Below, piece after piece: positions 3,177 through 52,600 of a DNA stretch of 64,000 nucleotides (its first letter is position 1; each line of letters begins with the position of its first letter). The notes under the pieces are model-generated. The model was given only the letters and a program-made list of their open reading frames with translations. It had not been told where the DNA came from and ran no database searches. The stretch covers positions 22,258,001 through 22,322,000 of the forward strand of contig CM022672.1 of the NCBI GenBank assembly GCA_012295275.1, read 5' to 3'. This DNA comes from Chrysomallon squamiferum (lineage: Eukaryota > Animalia > Mollusca). The translations under genes and the position numbers were made by a program.

Positions 3177-4338
3177 CTATACACAAACACACAAATCCTC
3201 CAGTATATCGTATTCTTCGTTTTCTTTTTTTTTCTCTCTCTCTCGCTCTTAACTTTCTTTCGATATTTTCTCTCTTTCTCTTTTCCTTTCTTTTTATCTC
3301 ACCGCATCTTTTCTCTTTATTTCTTGAACAACACATGTTACCAACGTACGTGACTGCGTATTTCAAGCTTTTCCAGGCTTTCTCTGTTTACATTCATCAT
3401 CAGTATATTGACATACAAACAAAAAGAGCAGATTACTTCTAAGAAAAATAATAGCCTGTATCAATAAACTTTAGACCTTGTGTGGATAACACGATTGACT
3501 GTTGCAGGACATGTGTCTGCATTTAATATAAAAACCTGTCGATTTTCAGATAATGAACATGAATCTGAAAACAGAGAATCCAAAACAGAGACCAAACGGC
3601 GAGAAAGAAACAAAAAGTTTAAAAATATATTTAAAAATAATAATAATAATAATAAAAAAAAACGAAAAAATAAAAATAAAATTCAAATTAAAAACAAAAT
3701 ATTTGCATATAAATCTCTTATAACAATGAGAATATAACATTTTATAATTTACATCATTCAGTTAAAGTTTGTAAACCTTGAAGCGTTAACAAAAATCGCA
3801 AGTTTGAACCTTCAACGTGAAATAAGAGGTACAAAAACACCCTTCATATATTGACAACATAACTAACTTACATACAAATATAATTATGACTTGTTACATT
3901 GATTCGGTAATATTTAATAACTCGTGTTATTTTAATCAGACATTTCTGACGCTGAAAAACTAACATCAAACCGCTTGTTCCACCTTGTAACGTCTGAACG
4001 ATACTGCGTAACGTAAAACAGAAATTCGAATCACGTTGACACGCTGTTCATTTTTGGTTTGTGTCGTTCTCAACAGTCTAATATAACCGATGTGTTGATG
4101 AATGGGACAATCTGAGTCTGCTAAACTTTTTTTTTCAGTTTCACAGAAGAGCTATAAGAGGTTTAGATGGTCAGGAAATGTCATAAACTAAGGTGACGTT
4201 AATTCTGTATTTTGAGTTCTCGTGATATAAAGTTTAATTCCAAAATATTTTGCTGCATATCGTTGTTGTTTGCAAGAAAAACTGTTGACTGGTTCATTTA
4301 TTTATTTAGTGTGTTCACGTGCAAATTCAGATTTTTTT

Positions 4339-6682: not shown

Positions 6683-7079
6683 TTAGGCCCAATTATTCGT
6701 TAGTTATTGGGCAATGTAATAGGAGAGAGATTAATTTTATACATATATATATATATATATATAATTTTGTAATAGTCTTATCTGTTTTGTTTCTTCGCTT
6801 AAATTTATTTATTTATTTACTTACTTACCTATTTCTTTACCTTTTAACTTATTTAGTTACTCGCTTGTTTGTTTGTTTCTTTGTTTGTTTCAAATTATAA
6901 AAGGTATTTTTGTCTACTATGTTATGGTTATGCATTTTTTAATGTTGTTGTTGTTGTTGTTTAATCGCGGCAGTAACAGGTTTTATTTTGTACTGTTTTC
7001 TGTGTCTATATGTTTCATCTAACATGCCTTAAATACTGTTATGTGTGTCTATATGTTTCTATTTAACGTGTCTATAGTA

Positions 7080-43651: not shown

Positions 43652-46600
43652 AATAATTTAAAAAAAAAAATTAAATTAAAAAATAAATGGCTTCATGTGG
43701 ACAAAAAATTGTTATGGAGATAACAAAGATCTCCCCAAGTATGGCAATACATTAAAATTACTATTTTAAAAAAATAATAATAATTTGCTATTTGTCAAAT
43801 AACAGTCAGTTTAATTGTGACTAAGACTTAATTTCAACCTTTCTAAAAAAAAAAAATTAATTTAAAAGAAACATAAATAATAAGGAAAGAATAATAAGAA
43901 AAAAAAGAATGGAAACAGAGACACACTCACACATTATGACATAAACATAAATTCAAATTAGTACATAGCCTGTTCAGAACCACAAAATATTTGACTACAG
44001 TATAAAAAGATGCTACCTATGAAATCACAATGGACCAATGTAAATGTGGTAATATAGACTACCAGCAATTCTGTTGTAACTCAGTGTATTCTGACAGTTA
44101 AACTTAAAGTCACTATAGATACACAGGAAGCAAAACAAGCACTATACAAGTTAATAATTACAAATCAAATCAATTTTTAAATTTCTTCTTTTTCAAAACC
44201 TGGGATATTCTTTCCATGCAAACTTTAATGCACTTAAAAAACACACATTTTAACTGCAATATGATTGTTTTCCATTTATAAATAATGCAAACAAGAACAG
44301 TTCACAGATTAGATTGACCTACCGAATCACATGAGATTAGGCTTATTATAAAACTGAAGAACAGAGAATAAGGAAACAATTTTAAAAATTATTATTTCAA
44401 AATTGGATCCATTTTCCCCAAAGACTTAAAAGATGAAGTTTAGAATGTCAATTTTTTGAGACGATAAAAAAAAAACATATACAGATTCTAAAGATAATAG
44501 TTCAGAAGCCTTGTTTTAATTGCCTTTAAAAACACTCACACAACCAAGAAACTGATCTTTGAAAATAAATATATACATATATGTTTCATAATAATTACAA
44601 GTGCAGTGTAATAACATCTGTTCTGTAACAGAAGTTTAAGTCAGTGAAAGTGAAGCCTGGTTTCAGATTTCATGCCATTAAAATACAATGAAAACAACAA
44701 AACAACCAAAATAAAACACACCCACTTGTAAGCAGATTAAGACAGACTTAAACCATAAACACTAGTCATAAAAATGACATAAAAATCACATAAAATAAAA
44801 AAAACAAATCAATAGAACACACACACACACACACATGCACTCTCTCTCTCACATGCACACTCTCTCTCACACTCACATTCACACAAAGTTATTCAATAAA
44901 TATTAAACTTAAAAAATCTTTCCATTACCATGAAGCCATTCTAAACACTGATATAAAAAATTAATATACAAATATCATTCAAACATTAGAAAGAACAATC
45001 AATAATTGTATCCAAAATGAAAAAATAAACAACAATACACTGACGGAAAAACATCTGAAGCAATTACTAATAGTATTATTTTTTAAATATTCAAATAATG
45101 CCACATCTTTGAAGCAATTAGCCAATAAATTTATAAAAACATAAAAATCCACTAACCCGAGTTCTTCGTGTGCTTTAATTTCCCGTGAAGAAAAGAAACA
45201 AATTCTTGGAAAGCGAAGATCTTGATGATCGACAAACACTTTGACTGGAATGAGGTTTGGTTCACACAGATGGTTAATGAATCTGCTGATGTTGCCGTAT
45301 TTTCTTGCATCAATGCAGTATGTTTCACCATCCTGAAAAAAGTGTAAAATATGTAAATAAAATCATAAGTAATCAACAACAAAAAACAACAAATTTGTTT
45401 GTGCTAAATCAAGGAAATTTCCATTCTTTTATCCAAATAACTGAATGTTTAATGAAAGTTTGTTGAATAATTTACTTTTACACTTTACTTTCTTGTTCTG
45501 TTAACAAGCCTGTATAATTTATGATCTTTATATTAGGAATATAAACTGCCAATCATTGTAACAAGTCAGTGAAACATGTCATAATATCTGTGGAGTTTAA
45601 AATATACAGTATCTCAGAACACACTATTTCACAGTGACGTCCACTACTTTTAAGCTCAACAGTTAAAAACTGGATCTTAAAAATTTGAACACCTTCAAAT
45701 TTGCGCAGTGTTTGGTCATCATGGATACAGAAAAAAAATTCGGTGTTACTTATTATATGTTTATCTTCATTTATTAAAAATATCTCTCCCTTCCTTATAA
45801 TAACACACACAAACCATATTGAAAACTCTTTTGTAAATTCAATCATTCAAAAAAACAGTGAAACTATTATCTTATGTTTGTTCATATTTTTATTATGTAC
45901 CTATCATAAAACACACACAAACAGATGTATGTGTGTGCATGCACATGTGAGTGCACATATATACAAAAAATACAAAGACAATATTAGTTTTTCTGTCTTT
46001 TGAATGGTATCATTTACTAACATGCTTTTTTTAGCATGTTGAAACACAAATAAAACTGTCTTCAATACTTGGACTCTTATTTATTTATTATGCCTGTACC
46101 TCAGAACACTGAAGTTAACATTGACGTAACTTCCTTGTATTTAAGCTCAACAGTCATTGACTGGATCTCAAATTAGGGAACATCTTAAATTTTGCGCAGT
46201 GTTTAGTCATCATGGGTACAGATATTAATTAATTTGCTTTTTCTTTTTTTAAACTAGTTTATTATTTTATGTCAACATGCAAGTAGTATTAAAACAAAAT
46301 ACTTATTATTACACAGATCCTGGTTTTATTTAGAATGAAAAAGATAAATGGATTATTCTAAGAAAAATGTAAGATACTATCTGTCATTAATACCTAAAAT
46401 TAACAATTAAACAGTGATATTTCCATACCTACTTGCCCAAGATAAGAAACCGAACTAACTATTAAGTTTATTTTAAGGTTATTTTAAAATGATAAATATC
46501 CAATCCAAATCAACTTTGATTAGTACTGTTACTGCCAATTCCTCTGTCCAATTCTTGCTGCAAAGTAGGCATTCTCACAATCTTACAGTTCCAATATCAC

Positions 46601-49600
46601 AAATTTTGAAACCTACTGCTTGAAAAGAATTTAAAGAATTGTGAATAATCTTACCCTGTTGTCAAGATCAAAGAGGTAGGAATCATCTTCTCGACTGTCA
46701 GCCTCAGAATCTGAGATCAGCTCACCAATGTATCTAAGAAAAATATAAAATTAAAATTAATTTTAAAAAATATACCTTAAAATAAAATTAACATATATTT
46801 ATCATTCACTGAGATAAACAGAATATTAAGCTATCAAGATACACAAATAATAAAGACAGTAAAATTATCTGACAATATAATTTAACTTCAGAAACTTCTA
46901 GCAGTTATTATAAATCTTTGTTCAATTAAATCTTATTTCCTAATATGTGTAGATGTTTTACAATTATGTAATTTTTTGGATGCCAGCTCTTCAATATTGC
47001 AAATAGTGTGACTAAAAGAAACTCACTCGCAAACAAATTTTCCTTTTGGAATATCTTGTAGGGTCTTCACACCCCAGCCACGACCATTTGTTTTGAATAA
47101 CTGAAGTCGTACACTGAAAAAAATAAACAATTACAAAACTATATAAAATATTATTTATTTACTACAGTTCTGAGTTGAAAAAAGTAACAAAATATTAAAG
47201 TGTAAAGAATATAAAATATTATCAGAAATATAACAAATTTGTTATCATATTTTAGAGAAGAAAAAGTAACTGGGATATCTTTTTCAATTCAAAAATGGGG
47301 AAAAAATATATATGTATCAAAGTGCAAAAAAAGAAATGTGTTAATATCAAAATACTAATCTTTTATTTCTGAAAATTAAAAATCAAAATAATAAATTATT
47401 TTATAGGAACATTTTTTTAAAATAAAACATTAGTGAATTTTAAATAAAGCACAAAGCATTACACTGCAAAGAAGAAAACATTACTTTCAAAATACTGTTA
47501 GCTGAATCATTTCACACTAAATAATATTAAAAATTATCCACTGTTACAGTACTAAAAATGCAGTCAATACATGTTAACTCAACAACCTTGAAGGTCAATA
47601 TCGTACTTCTTAGAATGAAATTAATAAGAACTATTTCTACATGTTATCTTATTATCTAGACCTGTTTCAGAAATACAAAAAATTATGAATACTGTCCATA
47701 AAAGCTTATTGATTTTGCAATGAAAATCATAAAAATCATTTTTGGTCATAAAAATAAATGTGTCTACTTCTGCACTGCCTACATTTGCACTTTAATACAA
47801 CAATAAGTGAAGCCCCCCTAAAACACTGTGTGAGGATTTAAGAAAATTAAAAAAAAAAAACCCTTTTAAAAATTATTTAAAAGGATAGGCATTGTAAATA
47901 ATTAAACTTTCAGAGTTCACAAAAAAAGTATGATATAAACTGAATTCATGAACTTTGAATGAATTTAAACTCAAAATGGAAACAAATGCAGTTCATGGCT
48001 TAGATTAAAATGTTTTTATTGGGTAAAGAATCTATATTCTAAAAATATTTTTACAGTTAGTAGGTACAGCAGGCAAATTTTTTCTGACTTTAATTATGAC
48101 TCTGTCTCCAGCGGTTAAAAAGATATATGCAAATTGGTACGACAGGTATTTGGTTGTTTTTTAGCCCGATTTTGGCTAATTAGCAGAAAGGGCTACTTTG
48201 GCCACCTGTAGTTTGAAAGGTAATTGACACAAAAGGCTGAAAATCAACAAGAGTGATGGAACCAACTTGCTAAATGAGCTCAAATGTTTTCAGATCTGTA
48301 TGTTTGTATGTCTGTTGACAGTAACATGCTAAACATGCCAAAATCTTCAAAATGACACATGGCAGAATGAGTAAAAGTTCAAATAGACACTGTGGTTTCA
48401 GTTTTTGTCTTATTTGACAAATTTAACCTTGTGTTGTGAACAATTTATCAAGATCTTTCAAATGACAAACTTGAATTTAACATCTGTAATAAAAAATTTT
48501 AACAATTCTGCCAAGCCCATAAAAAAAAATTACCTTTTCAATTTATATAGAACAGCACAACTTTATTTACATAAGCAGCTTCAGTTTTCACTCTATTAAA
48601 TAATTGGTAGTAATAAGTTAAGATACTGTGATATGTATATATCATATATATTTAAATGTTACTTAAAAGATATACAAGCATTTGATGTTTAACCATAATC
48701 CTTTGCAATACATAAACTCAGCTAATCCTTGGAGTCAACTCCAGAAAGGTGCTGCATGTATTAATCAGGGACAATAAAATGTGTATAATCATGAGACAAG
48801 AGGCAATTAAAGACACAGGTGTTATAAGTCTGTCATTTGAAGCAAACATAAAATAATTTTCTTAGCTTTGTACTTGCTGTGATTTGACAGCAAACAGAAG
48901 TTATCTATCATCTGACCATTGTTGAAATTTTCTCTGATAGAGCTTATCAACAAGCAAAAATAATGTTTTAAAACTGATCAATTTATGATTTTACATTTTA
49001 AAAACAGTGATTAGATTTTTATTCAGCATTCCATCAATACCTCTGAATACATTGTTCTATTATGTTGTATAGTTTGTTATGTTTACGATTCTTAATTCAA
49101 CGTTTATCACAAGAATTTTGAAAGCAAAATAATTGACAGTTTTAAACTGAAGATAGTAATCAGCAAAACAATGTTAATTTTATTTATTTCAGAACGCCTT
49201 TTCGCTATGCACATGCTATAATGAATACGCTAAAAGTAGGAACATTAAAGAAAAACAAACAGCCAACAAGTTATTAAAAATATAAACAACATATAAATAT
49301 AATCATTTTAAACAGTGCCAGACCTTTCTAGCTGTACATAAGATCTACGGCAATTTGGGTCTGTAAAAAAAACATAACGTAATGGCGATTTCGCTAAGCA
49401 CATGCTACGTTCAAACACAGAGCTTGTTTTTGCCAAAGATGATACACCATAGTGATGCACATTGTTTGAAAGGTAATTGAATGATCTTTCATTTGATCCC
49501 GTGAACATAGGTTTTATTTTCAGCCAGTTTTTTTCAAAACAGGTTTGAAGGCATGAAAAAGTACATTTTTGGACACAACTTTTGATATAAGCCATTGCCA

Positions 49601-52600
49601 GGAACGACATGCACACTGTTAGAAAGATTGACCTTTGACCCTCCTAGGTGTGCTAAAAATAACATTGAAGCCAGTTTGGTGAAAACAAGCCAGGCATTTG
49701 TAGAGCGACCCTATTTTAGGACTTTTTACTCCACGCTGTTAATTGCTGACCACGGACACCGAAGTGCATTTACCCCCACCGCGTTTAACACTCTCATACA
49801 AAGAACTGACTAAACATACAACAAGAACAACAACACCATTTAAAAGAGCACATAAAGATCTTTAGTTACATGTATTTGTTTTTTATGGTAGGATTTATAG
49901 AAGGGATTTGGAAGTGGAGGAAAATGAAAAAAATCTGAACTTTTAACAGCTTCGACCAATTATATCGGTAGGCTACCGGTACCTACAGTTAGTATAGGAA
50001 AATTAAATACCTTCAAAGTTCTTTGATATATCAGAAGTTTTTGCCCATTCAAAAAGGTGAATAAATTAAAATTTAAATCTTTTAACTTTAGTATTCCACC
50101 GATTTTAATTTCAGTCTTTGTACAAAAAATTACAATATAATACATCCCAAGTGTATGTGTATGCGTGTTCTTTAACACTGTTTTATTTATTAGTGTAAAT
50201 ATCCAATATGATGCTCTAGGTGCTTTTATATTAATTTGTCATCCATAAACCTAAGTTTTTTTGTTTTTTTATATAATTAATTATCCAAGAATACCCATTT
50301 ATAATCAAGTGATCTTTACTGTTTCTTTTGTTTTTTTAAAACATAGTTATACTGCTGGTAAAGCTCAAACAGATGGCAGTAAAGAAATGCTTTTTTACTG
50401 AAGAGTCGCCATTTTGACTATTTTTTGCAGCTTTTCAAAAATATAATTTTATCATTATAAAAAATTTTAAAAATTAAATTATGGCTATTCTTTCTGTTTA
50501 ATGACATAAAAATACATTTTGAGCAATGATCTAGGAATATATTTTAATACTTCCAAGACATAAAAAACTCTTGTGTAATTGTAAAAAGAAATAATATTGT
50601 CCTTTAACAGATTAGTTACAAATGGAATAGGAGTAACAATTTGACAAATATAAAGTTGAAAAAAGTCAGTTTAATGTAATGAAATCTGCAGAACACTAGC
50701 TAATTGCAAAAATTAATTGCAAAAATTCAGTTAAAAAATAAATAAATAAATAAAAATAATGTGGGCTATCCTTTAACAAATTAGTTACAAGTGGAATAGG
50801 AGTAACAATTTGACAAAATTCCATTCTGGACAACTCTGTTATTGCAAAAATTCAGTTTAAAAAAAATAATTAAAAAAATAAAAATAATTCCATTCTGGAC
50901 AACTCTGTTATTGCAATTTGTCCAACATCGACAAGCCCTGTTACACTCAAACACTAAAGGAGGCTCTAATAAATTGGTTTCAGGTATCAAGTGACCCAAC
51001 TGCAAATTAGCCAGACATGCATAAACAATAAGTAACATTCCTGAACAAACAAAACAATTTCAAATATGGATACAGGTAAAATAAGAAAATTCGGTTTGTA
51101 AATGTTTTCGACACAATTTAACCAAGAAATATTTAACACTTATTATCACTATGAAGAATATAAATGTGAAGATTAAAGAACTAAAGTTCTTCAAAAAAAT
51201 ATTTAACTAACAAATCTATCTTCTTTTTTTTTCCTTTTGTAAATACTGTTAATTAAAATATAAGCTGTGCTGTTATTATACTGTTTTGAAAATTGTTTTG
51301 TTAATTTATTTTTTTATAAACACTACTATAACAATACTTTAAGAAATGTTTAAAACATACCTTATCATACCAGCATTTCACACTGCTTCTAGCACAAACA
51401 CAAAACAAAGACGAACAGTCATCTTTGCATCGACAACTCTGTAACATAATAATTTATGAGAAATATAAACATTTGGTTTTGCAATCAAGTATGAAAGAAA
51501 CAACAAGAAAGAAATGTATCAATATAAAACTATAGTTAACCACATAAAACCTCTTACACATATTTTTCTTATATACTGAATTTTTTTTTTCAAGTAGTTA
51601 ATTAGCTGAAAAATAAATCAACAATATACCTAAACTAGTTAAATATATCTGAGGCATGTTTTGCATTAACTGTTGATAATTAACAGTACAAAACCAGAGA
51701 CACATATCTTAAAACATACTGAAAATGTATTTATAGGAATTTAACTGTTAGCAAATTTATAATGAGAAGTAATCCAAAGTAAAATACCTGTAAACTAGTT
51801 AAGGTTCTATTTATATTGAGAGGTGTTGTTTCTATATTTTCATTTACATAGAGGTAGTCTGTTGGGAATGATTCATCATCAACTGCATTTGTACATGCAA
51901 TGGGATTCCTCTCTCGACCAAAGGCAATATCTCTGAAATAAAGAAATTTAATTTGTCATAGAGTGTCGATATTAATACATAGCTTTTAATTATATTTTTG
52001 TTTAAGTTTTCTTTTCTTTTTTATTTTTGTACTTCCCCTTCATGTTTCTATAACCATTTTTTCCTTTTATTTTTTTTCTTTTCATCAGCTTTGGTCCTGG
52101 ATGTTTCTGTTTCACTTCCCCTTCTATTGATGTTAGACTATGAACATTTGTTATTTTTTGTCTTCACTTTAAAACACAATTTAAAGCACAAATCTTTGGG
52201 ACTGTTTCAGTTTTTCAGGGAAAATGGTTATTTTCTGAATTCTTAAAATGACATAAGATTAAGGAAAAATAAATAAAATAATAAAATGAAAAACAGAATA
52301 TGCCGAAAAATGTCTGCAATTTTCTCAGTTTCATCCTTTTCATTTTACTGGGTTTTTGGGGGGTAATGGAAAATTAGTGAAAGATTATTTTTTCAAAACA
52401 AAATTTAAATACAGAAAACATAACAAAGTTGGTGAAATTAAGAAAAAGAAACCCTTTAAAGAACATCTGGAAAACATCAACTGAACCTAAAACCCAACAA
52501 TTTGAAATTATACCAAGGGAAGCAACTCTTGACCAAAACACTTCAAAGATTTCTGTAGAATACAAATATGTGGTGACATAAAAATATTACACTCAGATGA

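What the first reader, a model, noticed from the sequence alone, without database searches (positions are those of the whole stretch)
45609..46221. Tandem pair of intronic box C/D guide RNAs antisense to U4 snRNA inside the G9a/EHMT SET-domain intron
Seen: two diverged 120-128 nt copies lie in one intron, both sense to the host gene. Each has a terminal stem, AUGAUGA, an invariant CACUGCGCAAA and GUGUUCUGA. The copies covary: terminal stem GUAUC/GAUAC vs CUGUACC/GGUACAG, apical stem CAGUU-UUU-AACUG vs CAGUC-AAU-GACUG, and UUAAG/CUUAA vs UUGAG/CUUAA. A basal G-U-rich stem (GGUGUUC/GGACGUC vs GAUGU/ACGUC) is also present. Established: metazoan U4 begins AGCUUUGCGCAGUGG, so the element pairs with U4 nt 4-14, the U4/U6 stem II region. 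Human U91/SCARNA17 guides 2'-O-methylation of U4 C8 with a similar element next to box C. Inference: these are invertebrate spliceosomal guide scaRNAs, duplicated and maintained by selection in a chromatin-writer host gene. Caveat: D' is degenerate. UUGA in copy B would point to G7 by the +5 rule, not C8.
Basis: partly seen in the sequence, partly recalled or inferred. Interest (0 to 1): 0.8.

Follow-up and report, generated by a model that had tools for sequence, protein, structure and literature searches.

The report
Twin invertebrate U4-guide RNAs in intron
One intron of a histone-methyltransferase gene, likely from a snail, holds two copies of a small guide-type RNA gene that match the start of the splicing RNA U4 and likely direct a methyl mark onto it, as members of a widespread invertebrate family that the Rfam library does not catch and that is likely the counterpart of the vertebrate guide U91.

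Summary
Observation confirmed. Two box C/D units (45609-45730, 46095-46221, minus strand) lie sense in one 1322-nt intron of an EHMT/G9a gene; splicing is seen in RNA contigs. Their 11-nt guide pairs with U4 nt 4-14 and shares 10 nt, at the same place, with Rfam's U91 model (14.6 bits, threshold 40). A metagenome scan gave 36 homologous loci among 111 hits, in introns of RPL24, NAA40, KIF23, RPL11, MRPL18, eIF4B and others, none EHMT, so the chromatin host is incidental. The internal C'/D' motif is not the vertebrate one: in 23 of 23 copies examined it forms a K-turn-like motif whose register predicts U4 U6 (G7 with an extended D'), not C8. RNA contigs from four runs of one study cover copy B plus the spacer, which suggests a doublet RNA like SCARNA9; a third tandem copy exists in a DNA-like run and explains the apparent circle. 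Cajal-body location, mature ends and the methylated base are untested. This scan already noted the family in octopus and arthropod DNA. Verdict: new variant of a known kind; interest 0.45.

The parts
46095..46221 (-). Copy B, box C/D RNA unit (upstream copy): 7-bp terminal stem, box C 46213-46207, U4-antisense guide 46201-46191, internal D'/C' motif closing a ~62-nt hairpin, box D ending at 46100
   Evidence: covered by RNA contigs in runs X1-X4
45609..45730 (-). Copy A, box C/D RNA unit (downstream copy): 5-bp terminal stem, box C 45722-45716, guide 45710-45700, internal D'/C' motif and hairpin, box D 280 nt before the 3' splice site
   Evidence: present in DNA-like run X5; its body was not seen in RNA contigs
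46191..46201 (-). Guide CACUGCGCAAA of copy B, complementary to U4 nt 4-14
   Evidence: U4 gene L112; human U4 text
45700..45710 (-). Guide CACUGCGCAAA of copy A, identical to that of copy B
45731..46094 (-). Spacer between the copies (~360 nt), with two (UG)4 runs; present in RNA contigs joined to copy B; polymorphic
45726..46216 (-). 491-nt unit (copy B plus spacer) that occurs as an extra tandem copy in other individuals
   Evidence: joint 46216->45726 in RNA runs X2, X3; the same path as an 82-nt contig in DNA-like run X5
45333..46654 (-). GT-AG host intron (1322 nt) within the SET-domain coding region
   Evidence: spliced joint in 3 of 3 RNA runs laid there
45157..45332 (-). Downstream EHMT1/2 (G9a/GLP) SET-domain exon
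   Evidence: 97% to Gigantopelta and Haliotis proteins
46655..46733 (-). Upstream EHMT SET-domain exon

Best explanation
The two units are intron-encoded box C/D guide RNA genes, likely homologous to the vertebrate U91 (mgU4-8) guide domain, that are predicted to pair with nt 4-14 of U4 snRNA and to direct a 2'-O-methyl group near the U4 5' end, most likely at U6 or G7 rather than the vertebrate C8. Shown: the boxes, stems and guide, the sense intronic position, the family of homologues, the match to U4, RNA covering copy B plus spacer. Inferred: after EHMT splicing, exonucleases trim the intron until stopped by SNU13/NOP58/NOP56/fibrillarin bound at the outer boxes, giving a doublet RNA (unit-spacer-unit, ~610 nt) that may be cut further into 120-128-nt monomers; the guide opens on free U4 before U4/U6 stem II forms (U6 snRNA carries the same CUGCGCAA); fibrillarin methylates the base paired to the fifth guide nucleotide before D'. 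My odds for the site: U6 0.4, G7 0.35, C8 0.15, none 0.1; two neighbouring sites are possible. The host gene is a vehicle only; the pair arose by local tandem duplication, which is still going on.
For: Rfam U91 (RF00283) consensus has box C, then CACUGCGCAA, then a CUGA D' at the same place; it is the best E-value hit for copy A in that call and recurs weakly in 4 of 8 homologous loci. The guide pairs over 11 nt with U4 nt 4-14 of a U4 gene fetched here (108.8 bits to RF00015; 2 of 500 shuffles reach 11 nt) and of human U4 as printed in PMC13253345. Human Cm8 is listed with scaRNA17 as guide in PMC7960923. 36 of 111 metagenome loci are homologues with boxes, hairpin and D box; 8 copies not used in training score 31-59 bits over their full length, while chance loci stay at or below about 21. 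The basal hairpin stem covaries (95% of cells paired, 4 of 6 pairs with double changes, 0 of 500 shuffles as high). L036 has a canonical CUGA in that same register. The sequence before box D is not conserved, so there is a single guide. RNA contigs from inside the intron cover copy B and spacer in 4 of 4 RNA runs, beside a spliced mRNA contig that skips the intron. SCARNA9 and sno-lncRNAs are precedents for doublets (PMC4041459 Discussion; PMC5054931 passages). L004 holds an independent pair in one KIF23 intron.
Against: The Rfam score is far below threshold (14.6 and at best 22.6 bits against 40) and copy B gave no U91 hit, so homology rests on box C plus 10 nt. All homologues were selected for that motif, so its invariance is by construction; 19 of the 36 loci are one group of close relatives and 12 of the 23 copies come from it. 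This species' own U4 was not obtained. Five loci (L018 group) and L096 have CUGA one base earlier, which points to G7, so the register is not uniform. PMC5389607 shows that D' boxes lacking the 5' C can act as 5- or 6-nt boxes and shift the site by one or two bases, which would give G7 or C8. The U.A pair in place of the second sheared A.G may weaken SNU13 binding (inference). RNA evidence is contigs from one study: no strand, ends or level. Fewer variants in copy B than in the spacer (1 of 127 vs 15 of 364 places) is not significant (p = 0.08). Copy A folds only modestly better than shuffles (z -1.9).
Confidence: 0.75

Rival explanations
1. The RNA is a real C/D RNP but does not methylate U4: it acts as a U4 chaperone or U6 mimic, or as a sink for U6-directed guides, in the way proposed for the nucleolar human mgU4-8 fragment ('regulatory RNP').
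For: The internal motif lacks the second sheared A.G pair in 23 of 23 copies; the implied target base differs between lineages while the pairing with U4 nt 4-14 does not; PMC5612246 notes that the 5' loop of mgU4-8 holds a sequence found in U6 and proposes non-guide roles (passages).
Against: The spacing from guide to internal motif is fixed to within one or two bases and the motif is strongly conserved, as expected of a methylation ruler; degenerate C'/D' motifs are active in yeast (PMC5389607); human U4 Cm8 exists.
Confidence: 0.13
2. The guide targets another RNA (rRNA, another snRNA, a tRNA) and the U4 match is incidental.
For: 11-nt matches arise by chance: 2 of 500 shuffles reach 11 nt against one 133-nt U4, and copy A has a second 11-nt match at nt 107-117 of that U4. 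rRNA and other snRNAs were not searched.
Against: The same 10-mer follows box C in the Rfam U91 consensus, whose assigned target is U4 C8; the run of A after it in the homologues matches U4 U4-U6, and L036 extends the pairing with a G opposite C3.
Confidence: 0.07
3. The genes are ordinary monomeric guides, and the RNA contig over copy B plus spacer comes from pre-mRNA or carried-over DNA of a multi-copy tandem array (or, less likely, a true circular RNA), not from a stable doublet RNA. This concerns only the doublet part of the reading.
For: A third tandem copy exists in DNA-like run X5, and all RNA contigs carry its marker letter at 45753; run X1 shows three spacer variants; collapsed copies raise apparent depth. 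No DNA run from the RNA-sampled animals was available.
Against: In X5 the unit is only about 1.5 times as deep as its flanks (77 vs 51), which would not single it out; two C/D RNAs in one intron are known to protect the sequence between them (PMC5054931).
Confidence: 0.35
4. One copy (A) is a decaying duplicate or the pair is a dispersed repeat.
For: Copy A has the weaker terminal stem and fold; no whole genome was available to count copies.
Against: Copy A keeps every box, the guide and the hairpin with compensatory changes; no other copy in 64 kb; homologues with an identified host are all intronic and sense.
Confidence: 0.05

Closest known systems
U91 / mgU4-8 (Rfam RF00283, labelled SCARNA18), the 3' box C/D domain of vertebrate SCARNA17 (mgU12-22/U4-8)
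   Same: Box C followed within 5-6 nt by CACUGCGCAA, then an internal D'; antisense to U4 stem II region; box D with terminal stem.
   Different: Intron-encoded and free-standing, whereas human mgU12-22/U4-8 is made from an independent capped Pol II gene (PMC4041459); 120-128 nt against an 83-position model, owing to a ~62-nt hairpin; D' is UNAA three bases (or UUGA/UUUA two bases) after the guide instead of CUGA one base after it, so the predicted site is U6 or G7, not C8; scores below the family threshold.
SCARNA9 (mgU2-19/30) and sno-lncRNAs
   Same: Two box C/D domains in tandem in one intron; spacer present in RNA contigs; some UG repeats in the spacer.
   Different: Both domains here carry the same guide; spacer ~360 nt against 175 nt; the UG content is modest and absent from the L004 spacer; ends and location of the RNA are not shown.
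Yeast snR48, U18, snR13 (unusual C'/D' motifs, PMC5389607)
   Same: Conserved non-consensus D' region lacking the 5' C, with alternative registers possible.
   Different: Those target rRNA and dual methylation was shown by experiment; here it is only a possibility.
Chicken GGgCD77 (predicted U4-C8 guide in RFWD2 intron 11, PMC2653536)
   Same: An intronic C/D RNA predicted to guide U4 position 8 (table row seen).
   Different: Its antisense element is listed as 3' (box D side); its sequence was not compared here.

Membership tests
Box C/D guide RNA | 5' box C (RUGAUGA) and 3' box D (CUGA) closed by a terminal stem | tested here: met
   Both copies, 5-bp and 7-8-bp stems
Box C/D guide RNA | Internal C'/D' motif | tested here: met
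   Degenerate but conserved in 23 of 23 copies examined, closing a covarying hairpin
Box C/D guide RNA | 10 nt or more antisense to a stable RNA just before D or D' | tested here: met
   11 nt to U4 nt 4-14 of L112 and of human U4; this species' U4 not obtained
Box C/D guide RNA | Intronic, sense to the host (animals) | tested here: met
   Spliced joint across the intron; same for homologues with an identified host
Box C/D guide RNA | Accumulates as a discrete RNA with mature ends | tested here: inconclusive
   RNA contigs cover copy B plus spacer in 4 runs of one study; contigs cannot show ends or strand
Box C/D guide RNA | Binds fibrillarin and directs methylation | not testable with these tools
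   needs RIP and RiboMeth-seq
U91 / RF00283 | Score at or above the gathering threshold (40 bits) | tested here: not met
   14.6 bits for copy A, no hit for copy B, 18-22.6 bits for 4 of 8 homologous loci, none at threshold in the window or 20 loci
U91 / RF00283 | CACUGCGCAA guide directly after box C | tested here: met
   alignment
U91 / RF00283 | CUGA D' one base after the guide, giving C8 by the fifth-base rule | tested here: not met
   That register reads AUUU or UUUG here; none of the 28 copies tabulated has CUGA there
SCARNA17 (mgU12-22/U4-8) | Independent capped Pol II transcript with a 5' U12-guide domain | tested here: not met
   Units are intronic; no Rfam family reaches threshold anywhere in the window; a diverged U12 domain was not searched for separately
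scaRNA (Cajal-body RNA) | Cajal-body location / WDR79 binding | not testable with these tools
   needs FISH or WDR79 IP
scaRNA (Cajal-body RNA) | G.U/U.G wobble stem at the top of the apical hairpin (vertebrate C/D signal) | tested here: not met
   Apical stems are Watson-Crick; the G-U pairs are in the basal stem
SCARNA9-type doublet / sno-lncRNA | Two C/D units in one intron | tested here: met
   window and L004
SCARNA9-type doublet / sno-lncRNA | Spacer retained in a stable RNA ending at the outer boxes | tested here: inconclusive
   Spacer is in RNA contigs joined to B-type units at both sides; ends not visible; multi-copy pre-mRNA not excluded
SCARNA9-type doublet / sno-lncRNA | GU-repeat-rich spacer | tested here: inconclusive
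   Two (UG)4 runs in 359 nt against 0.3 per kb gene-wide; none of three or more units in the 692-nt L004 spacer

The most novel reading that the evidence does not exclude
The U4 5'-end guide is an ancient bilaterian RNA that was intronic and mobile before vertebrates fused it into the capped SCARNA17; its C'/D' ruler has slipped between lineages so that invertebrates methylate U4 at U6 and/or G7 where vertebrates methylate C8, and single-intron pairs (EHMT here, KIF23 in L004) are expressed as doublet RNAs whose spacer and conserved UU-bulge hairpin act as a Cajal-body address.
Probability: 0.25. Interest if true: 0.65.

Novelty: new variant of a known kind. Interest (0 to 1): 0.45.

Why it matters
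U4 nt 6-11 is the part of U4/U6 stem II where human variants cause recessive disease (PMC13253345 passage), and U4 Cm8 is the one human snRNA methylation reported to vary between cell types (PMC9241379 passage). A guide for this region that is kept across invertebrates, but with a shifted ruler, would say that methylation of the region matters more than the exact base, and it gives a natural series of C'/D' variants for testing how the target base is chosen. It also fills an annotation gap: no member reaches an Rfam threshold.

Tried and rejected
No whole genome is held, so genome-wide copy number and this species' U4 could not be read. Rfam at gathering threshold: 0 hits in the window and 0 in 20 homologous loci. 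EHMT as conserved host: tblastn of all window ORFs against 111 loci gave nothing at E 1e-5, with a working self-control; flanks were at most 6 kb and many contigs are short. A second (box D) guide: the sequence is not conserved. Circular RNA: the 491-nt back-joint has a DNA counterpart in X5 with the same marker letters, so I rejected it as the main reading (three of the twelve differing letters in X4 are not listed by the tool and are inferred from the count). Lack of cover: the body of copy A and the outer parts of the intron had no RNA contig in the runs laid; by the tool's own caution this proves nothing, and a short branch can be pruned in assembly. RNAalifold on the 26-sequence alignment gave no structure because the hairpins align poorly; a 15-sequence subset was used instead. 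L034 and L052 were dropped from the 38 flagged loci for want of a box D within 125 nt. No coding host was found for the L018 group, L024 or L096; the two Atlas look-ups gave no usable taxon. Viral contigs hold neither the guide pattern nor U4. Literature: searches found no paper on an invertebrate guide for U4 nt 6-8; Drosophila passages list only mgU4-65 for U4 (PMC3884663); PMC8522698 has no mention. Two papers I recall as most relevant (Tycowski et al. 2004; Marz et al. 2011 on exceptional animal sno/scaRNAs) were not seen: look-ups for the second failed and it may already list invertebrate homologues. No supplements were opened.

Full report
What is there. On the minus strand two related units lie 491 nt apart, copy B at 46095-46221 and copy A at 45609-45730. 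Each reads: terminal stem arm, AUGAUGA, five bases, CACUGCGCAAA, a short A/U-rich motif, a hairpin of about 62 nt, a UGU(U/G)AA motif, ten bases, CUGA, terminal stem arm. The units are identical at 95 of 127 aligned columns, the flanks at 67 and 59 of 126. The box C plus guide pattern has 2 matches in the window and 0 in 100 shuffles, and a covariance model finds no further copy. The flanking exon is EHMT1/2, 97% identical to Gigantopelta and Haliotis proteins, so the animal is likely a gastropod. RNA contigs splice across the 1322-nt GT-AG intron 45333-46654 in 3 of 3 RNA runs laid there.

Relation to U91 and U4. Nothing in the window reaches an Rfam threshold. With relaxed limits copy A aligns end to end to RF00283 (SCARNA18, the U91 model) at 14.6 bits, threshold 40; the consensus shows AUGAUGAC, five bases, CACUGCGCAA, one base, CUGA. 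Copy B gave no such hit; 4 of 8 homologous loci did, at 18-22.6 bits. A U4 gene fetched here (L112, 108.8 bits to RF00015) and human U4 as printed in PMC13253345 (passage) both begin AGCUUUGCGCAGUGG; the guide pairs with nt 4-14, -19.6 kcal/mol, and 2 of 500 shuffles give as long a run. In the Rfam consensus the fifth base before CUGA pairs with C8, which agrees with the human Cm8 assigned to scaRNA17 (PMC7960923 table; rule in PMC8162545 passage). This species' U4 was not obtained.

The family. One scan of metagenome contigs for box C plus the 10-mer gave 111 loci. 38 have a D'-like tail after the motif; I dropped L034 and L052 for lack of a box D and count 36 as homologues: 31 by a model built from 15 copies (30 bits or more over the full length, two cut by contig ends) and five (L018 group) by anatomy, with 7-13-bp terminal stems and their own hairpin. 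19 of the 36 are one group of close relatives. Hosts, by flanking exons on the same strand: RPL24, NAA40 (nearest named protein a bivalve at 91%), KIF23-like kinesin, RPL11, eIF4B and a dsRBD protein, MRPL18, and for L002 a protein I recall as U2SURP (translation; name not tested). None carries EHMT exons. So the RNA is conserved and mobile, and its seat in a chromatin-writer gene is not even pan-molluscan. L004 has two copies 807 nt apart inside one intron.

Which base. The hairpin's basal stem covaries (95% of cells paired, 4 of 6 pairs with changes on both sides, 0 of 500 shuffles as high, slid controls 27-54%; the sequences are related, so this is not a p-value). It fixes the geometry of the internal motif. 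The fifth-base rule then gives U4 U6, and L036 has a canonical CUGA in this register. Against this, the L018 group and L096 have CUGA two bases after the 10-mer, giving G7, and PMC5389607 (abstract, passages, Discussion) shows that D' boxes without the 5' C can act as five- or six-base boxes, which here would give G7 or C8. The site is therefore open, with U6 and G7 ahead. The bases before box D are not conserved, so there is one guide. A second conserved feature is a hairpin motif (C/A)UC-CAG...CUG-UU-GAG, a two-base bulge next to GAG, found by pattern in 15 of 28 copies from five host groups; it may be a protein site and contains UGAG, the CAB-like word named in PMC4041459, but it is paired and its role is untested.

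Expression and copy number. Five runs hold part of the intron, four RNA runs of one study and one DNA-like run of another. In all four RNA runs a contig from inside the intron covers copy B and the spacer (45787-46209, 45726-46216, 45726-46216, 45693-46207), beside a separate spliced mRNA contig in the three runs laid over the exons. Two runs show a joint 46216 back to 45726, a loop of 490 nt. The DNA-like run X5 has the same path: an 82-nt contig leaves the spacer at 45753 with a marker letter, takes on B-type letters and ends at the 30-mer where the copy B contigs meet, at depth 20 against 51 for the path into copy A. All three RNA contigs laid carry that marker, and X4's count of differing letters fits a run into a B-type body. 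So some animals have a third tandem copy, and a linear unit-spacer-unit RNA would collapse into exactly this loop. That fits a doublet RNA as described for SCARNA9 (PMC4041459 Discussion) and sno-lncRNAs (PMC5054931 passages). It does not prove one: contigs give no ends or strand, there is no DNA from the same animals, and pre-mRNA of a longer array would look alike. The spacer has two (UG)4 runs, the L004 spacer none.

How it most likely works. EHMT splicing releases the intron; trimming stops at protein-bound outer boxes; a doublet and perhaps monomers result; the guide pairs with free U4 at the stretch that later binds U6 (U6 carries the same CUGCGCAA) and fibrillarin methylates U6 or G7. 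Boxes, guide, family and intronic RNA are shown; processing, protein binding, location and site are inferred. The main rival is a non-methylating role such as that proposed for the nucleolar human fragment (PMC5612246 passages).

Comparison and novelty. It works like U91 and is likely its homologue, but it fails the formal tests of membership (score, D' spacing, gene organisation). Human mgU12-22/U4-8 is an independent capped transcript; a chicken intronic U4-C8 guide was predicted before (PMC2653536 table). Paper searches found no invertebrate guide for this region, but two recalled key papers were not available and no supplements were read. This scan's notes already record the same kind of RNA as a pair in an octopus EEFSEC intron and in arthropod SPT6 introns (unchecked). 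I rate it a new variant of a known kind, interest 0.45: real, uncatalogued and with two testable twists (shifted target, doublet RNA), but not a new mechanism.

Noticed in passing
window 45726-46216: The 491-nt unit (copy B plus spacer) has an extra tandem copy in other individuals: copy-number variation of a guide RNA gene.
   Followed up: yes
L004:5912-6030 and 6723-6837 (-): An independent pair of the same guide RNA inside one intron of a KIF23-like kinesin gene, 807 nt apart, the two copies strongly diverged.
   Followed up: partly
window 46140-46170 and 45649-45679 (-); L002, L004, L010, L007 group: Conserved hairpin motif with a two-base bulge beside GAG in 15 of 28 copies from five host groups; possible protein or localisation site.
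   Followed up: partly
L018: about 3245-3300 (-) and nearby: A further short AUGAUGA...CUGA unit about 500 nt upstream of the guide RNA, with no coding host found: possibly a non-coding snoRNA host gene or cluster.
   Followed up: no
L112:193-325 (-): A complete U4 snRNA gene (108.8 bits) in a contig titled as a bacterial MAG: eukaryotic contamination of that assembly.
   Followed up: partly
L052:4363-4386 (-): Box C, guide and a CUGA three bases later, but no box D within 125 nt, at an exon boundary of a gene whose translation I recall as a phosphodiesterase; chance hit or decayed copy.
   Followed up: partly
window 50781-51059 (-): The end of an EHMT pre-SET exon (peptide [10 protein letters not shown]) appears twice about 70 nt apart in one frame, suggesting a small duplication that includes the exon end.
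   Followed up: no
window 45609-45626 (-): The 3' end of copy A matches an internal stretch of the Rfam U91 consensus over 13 bases, but other invertebrate homologues do not keep it; probably chance.
   Followed up: partly
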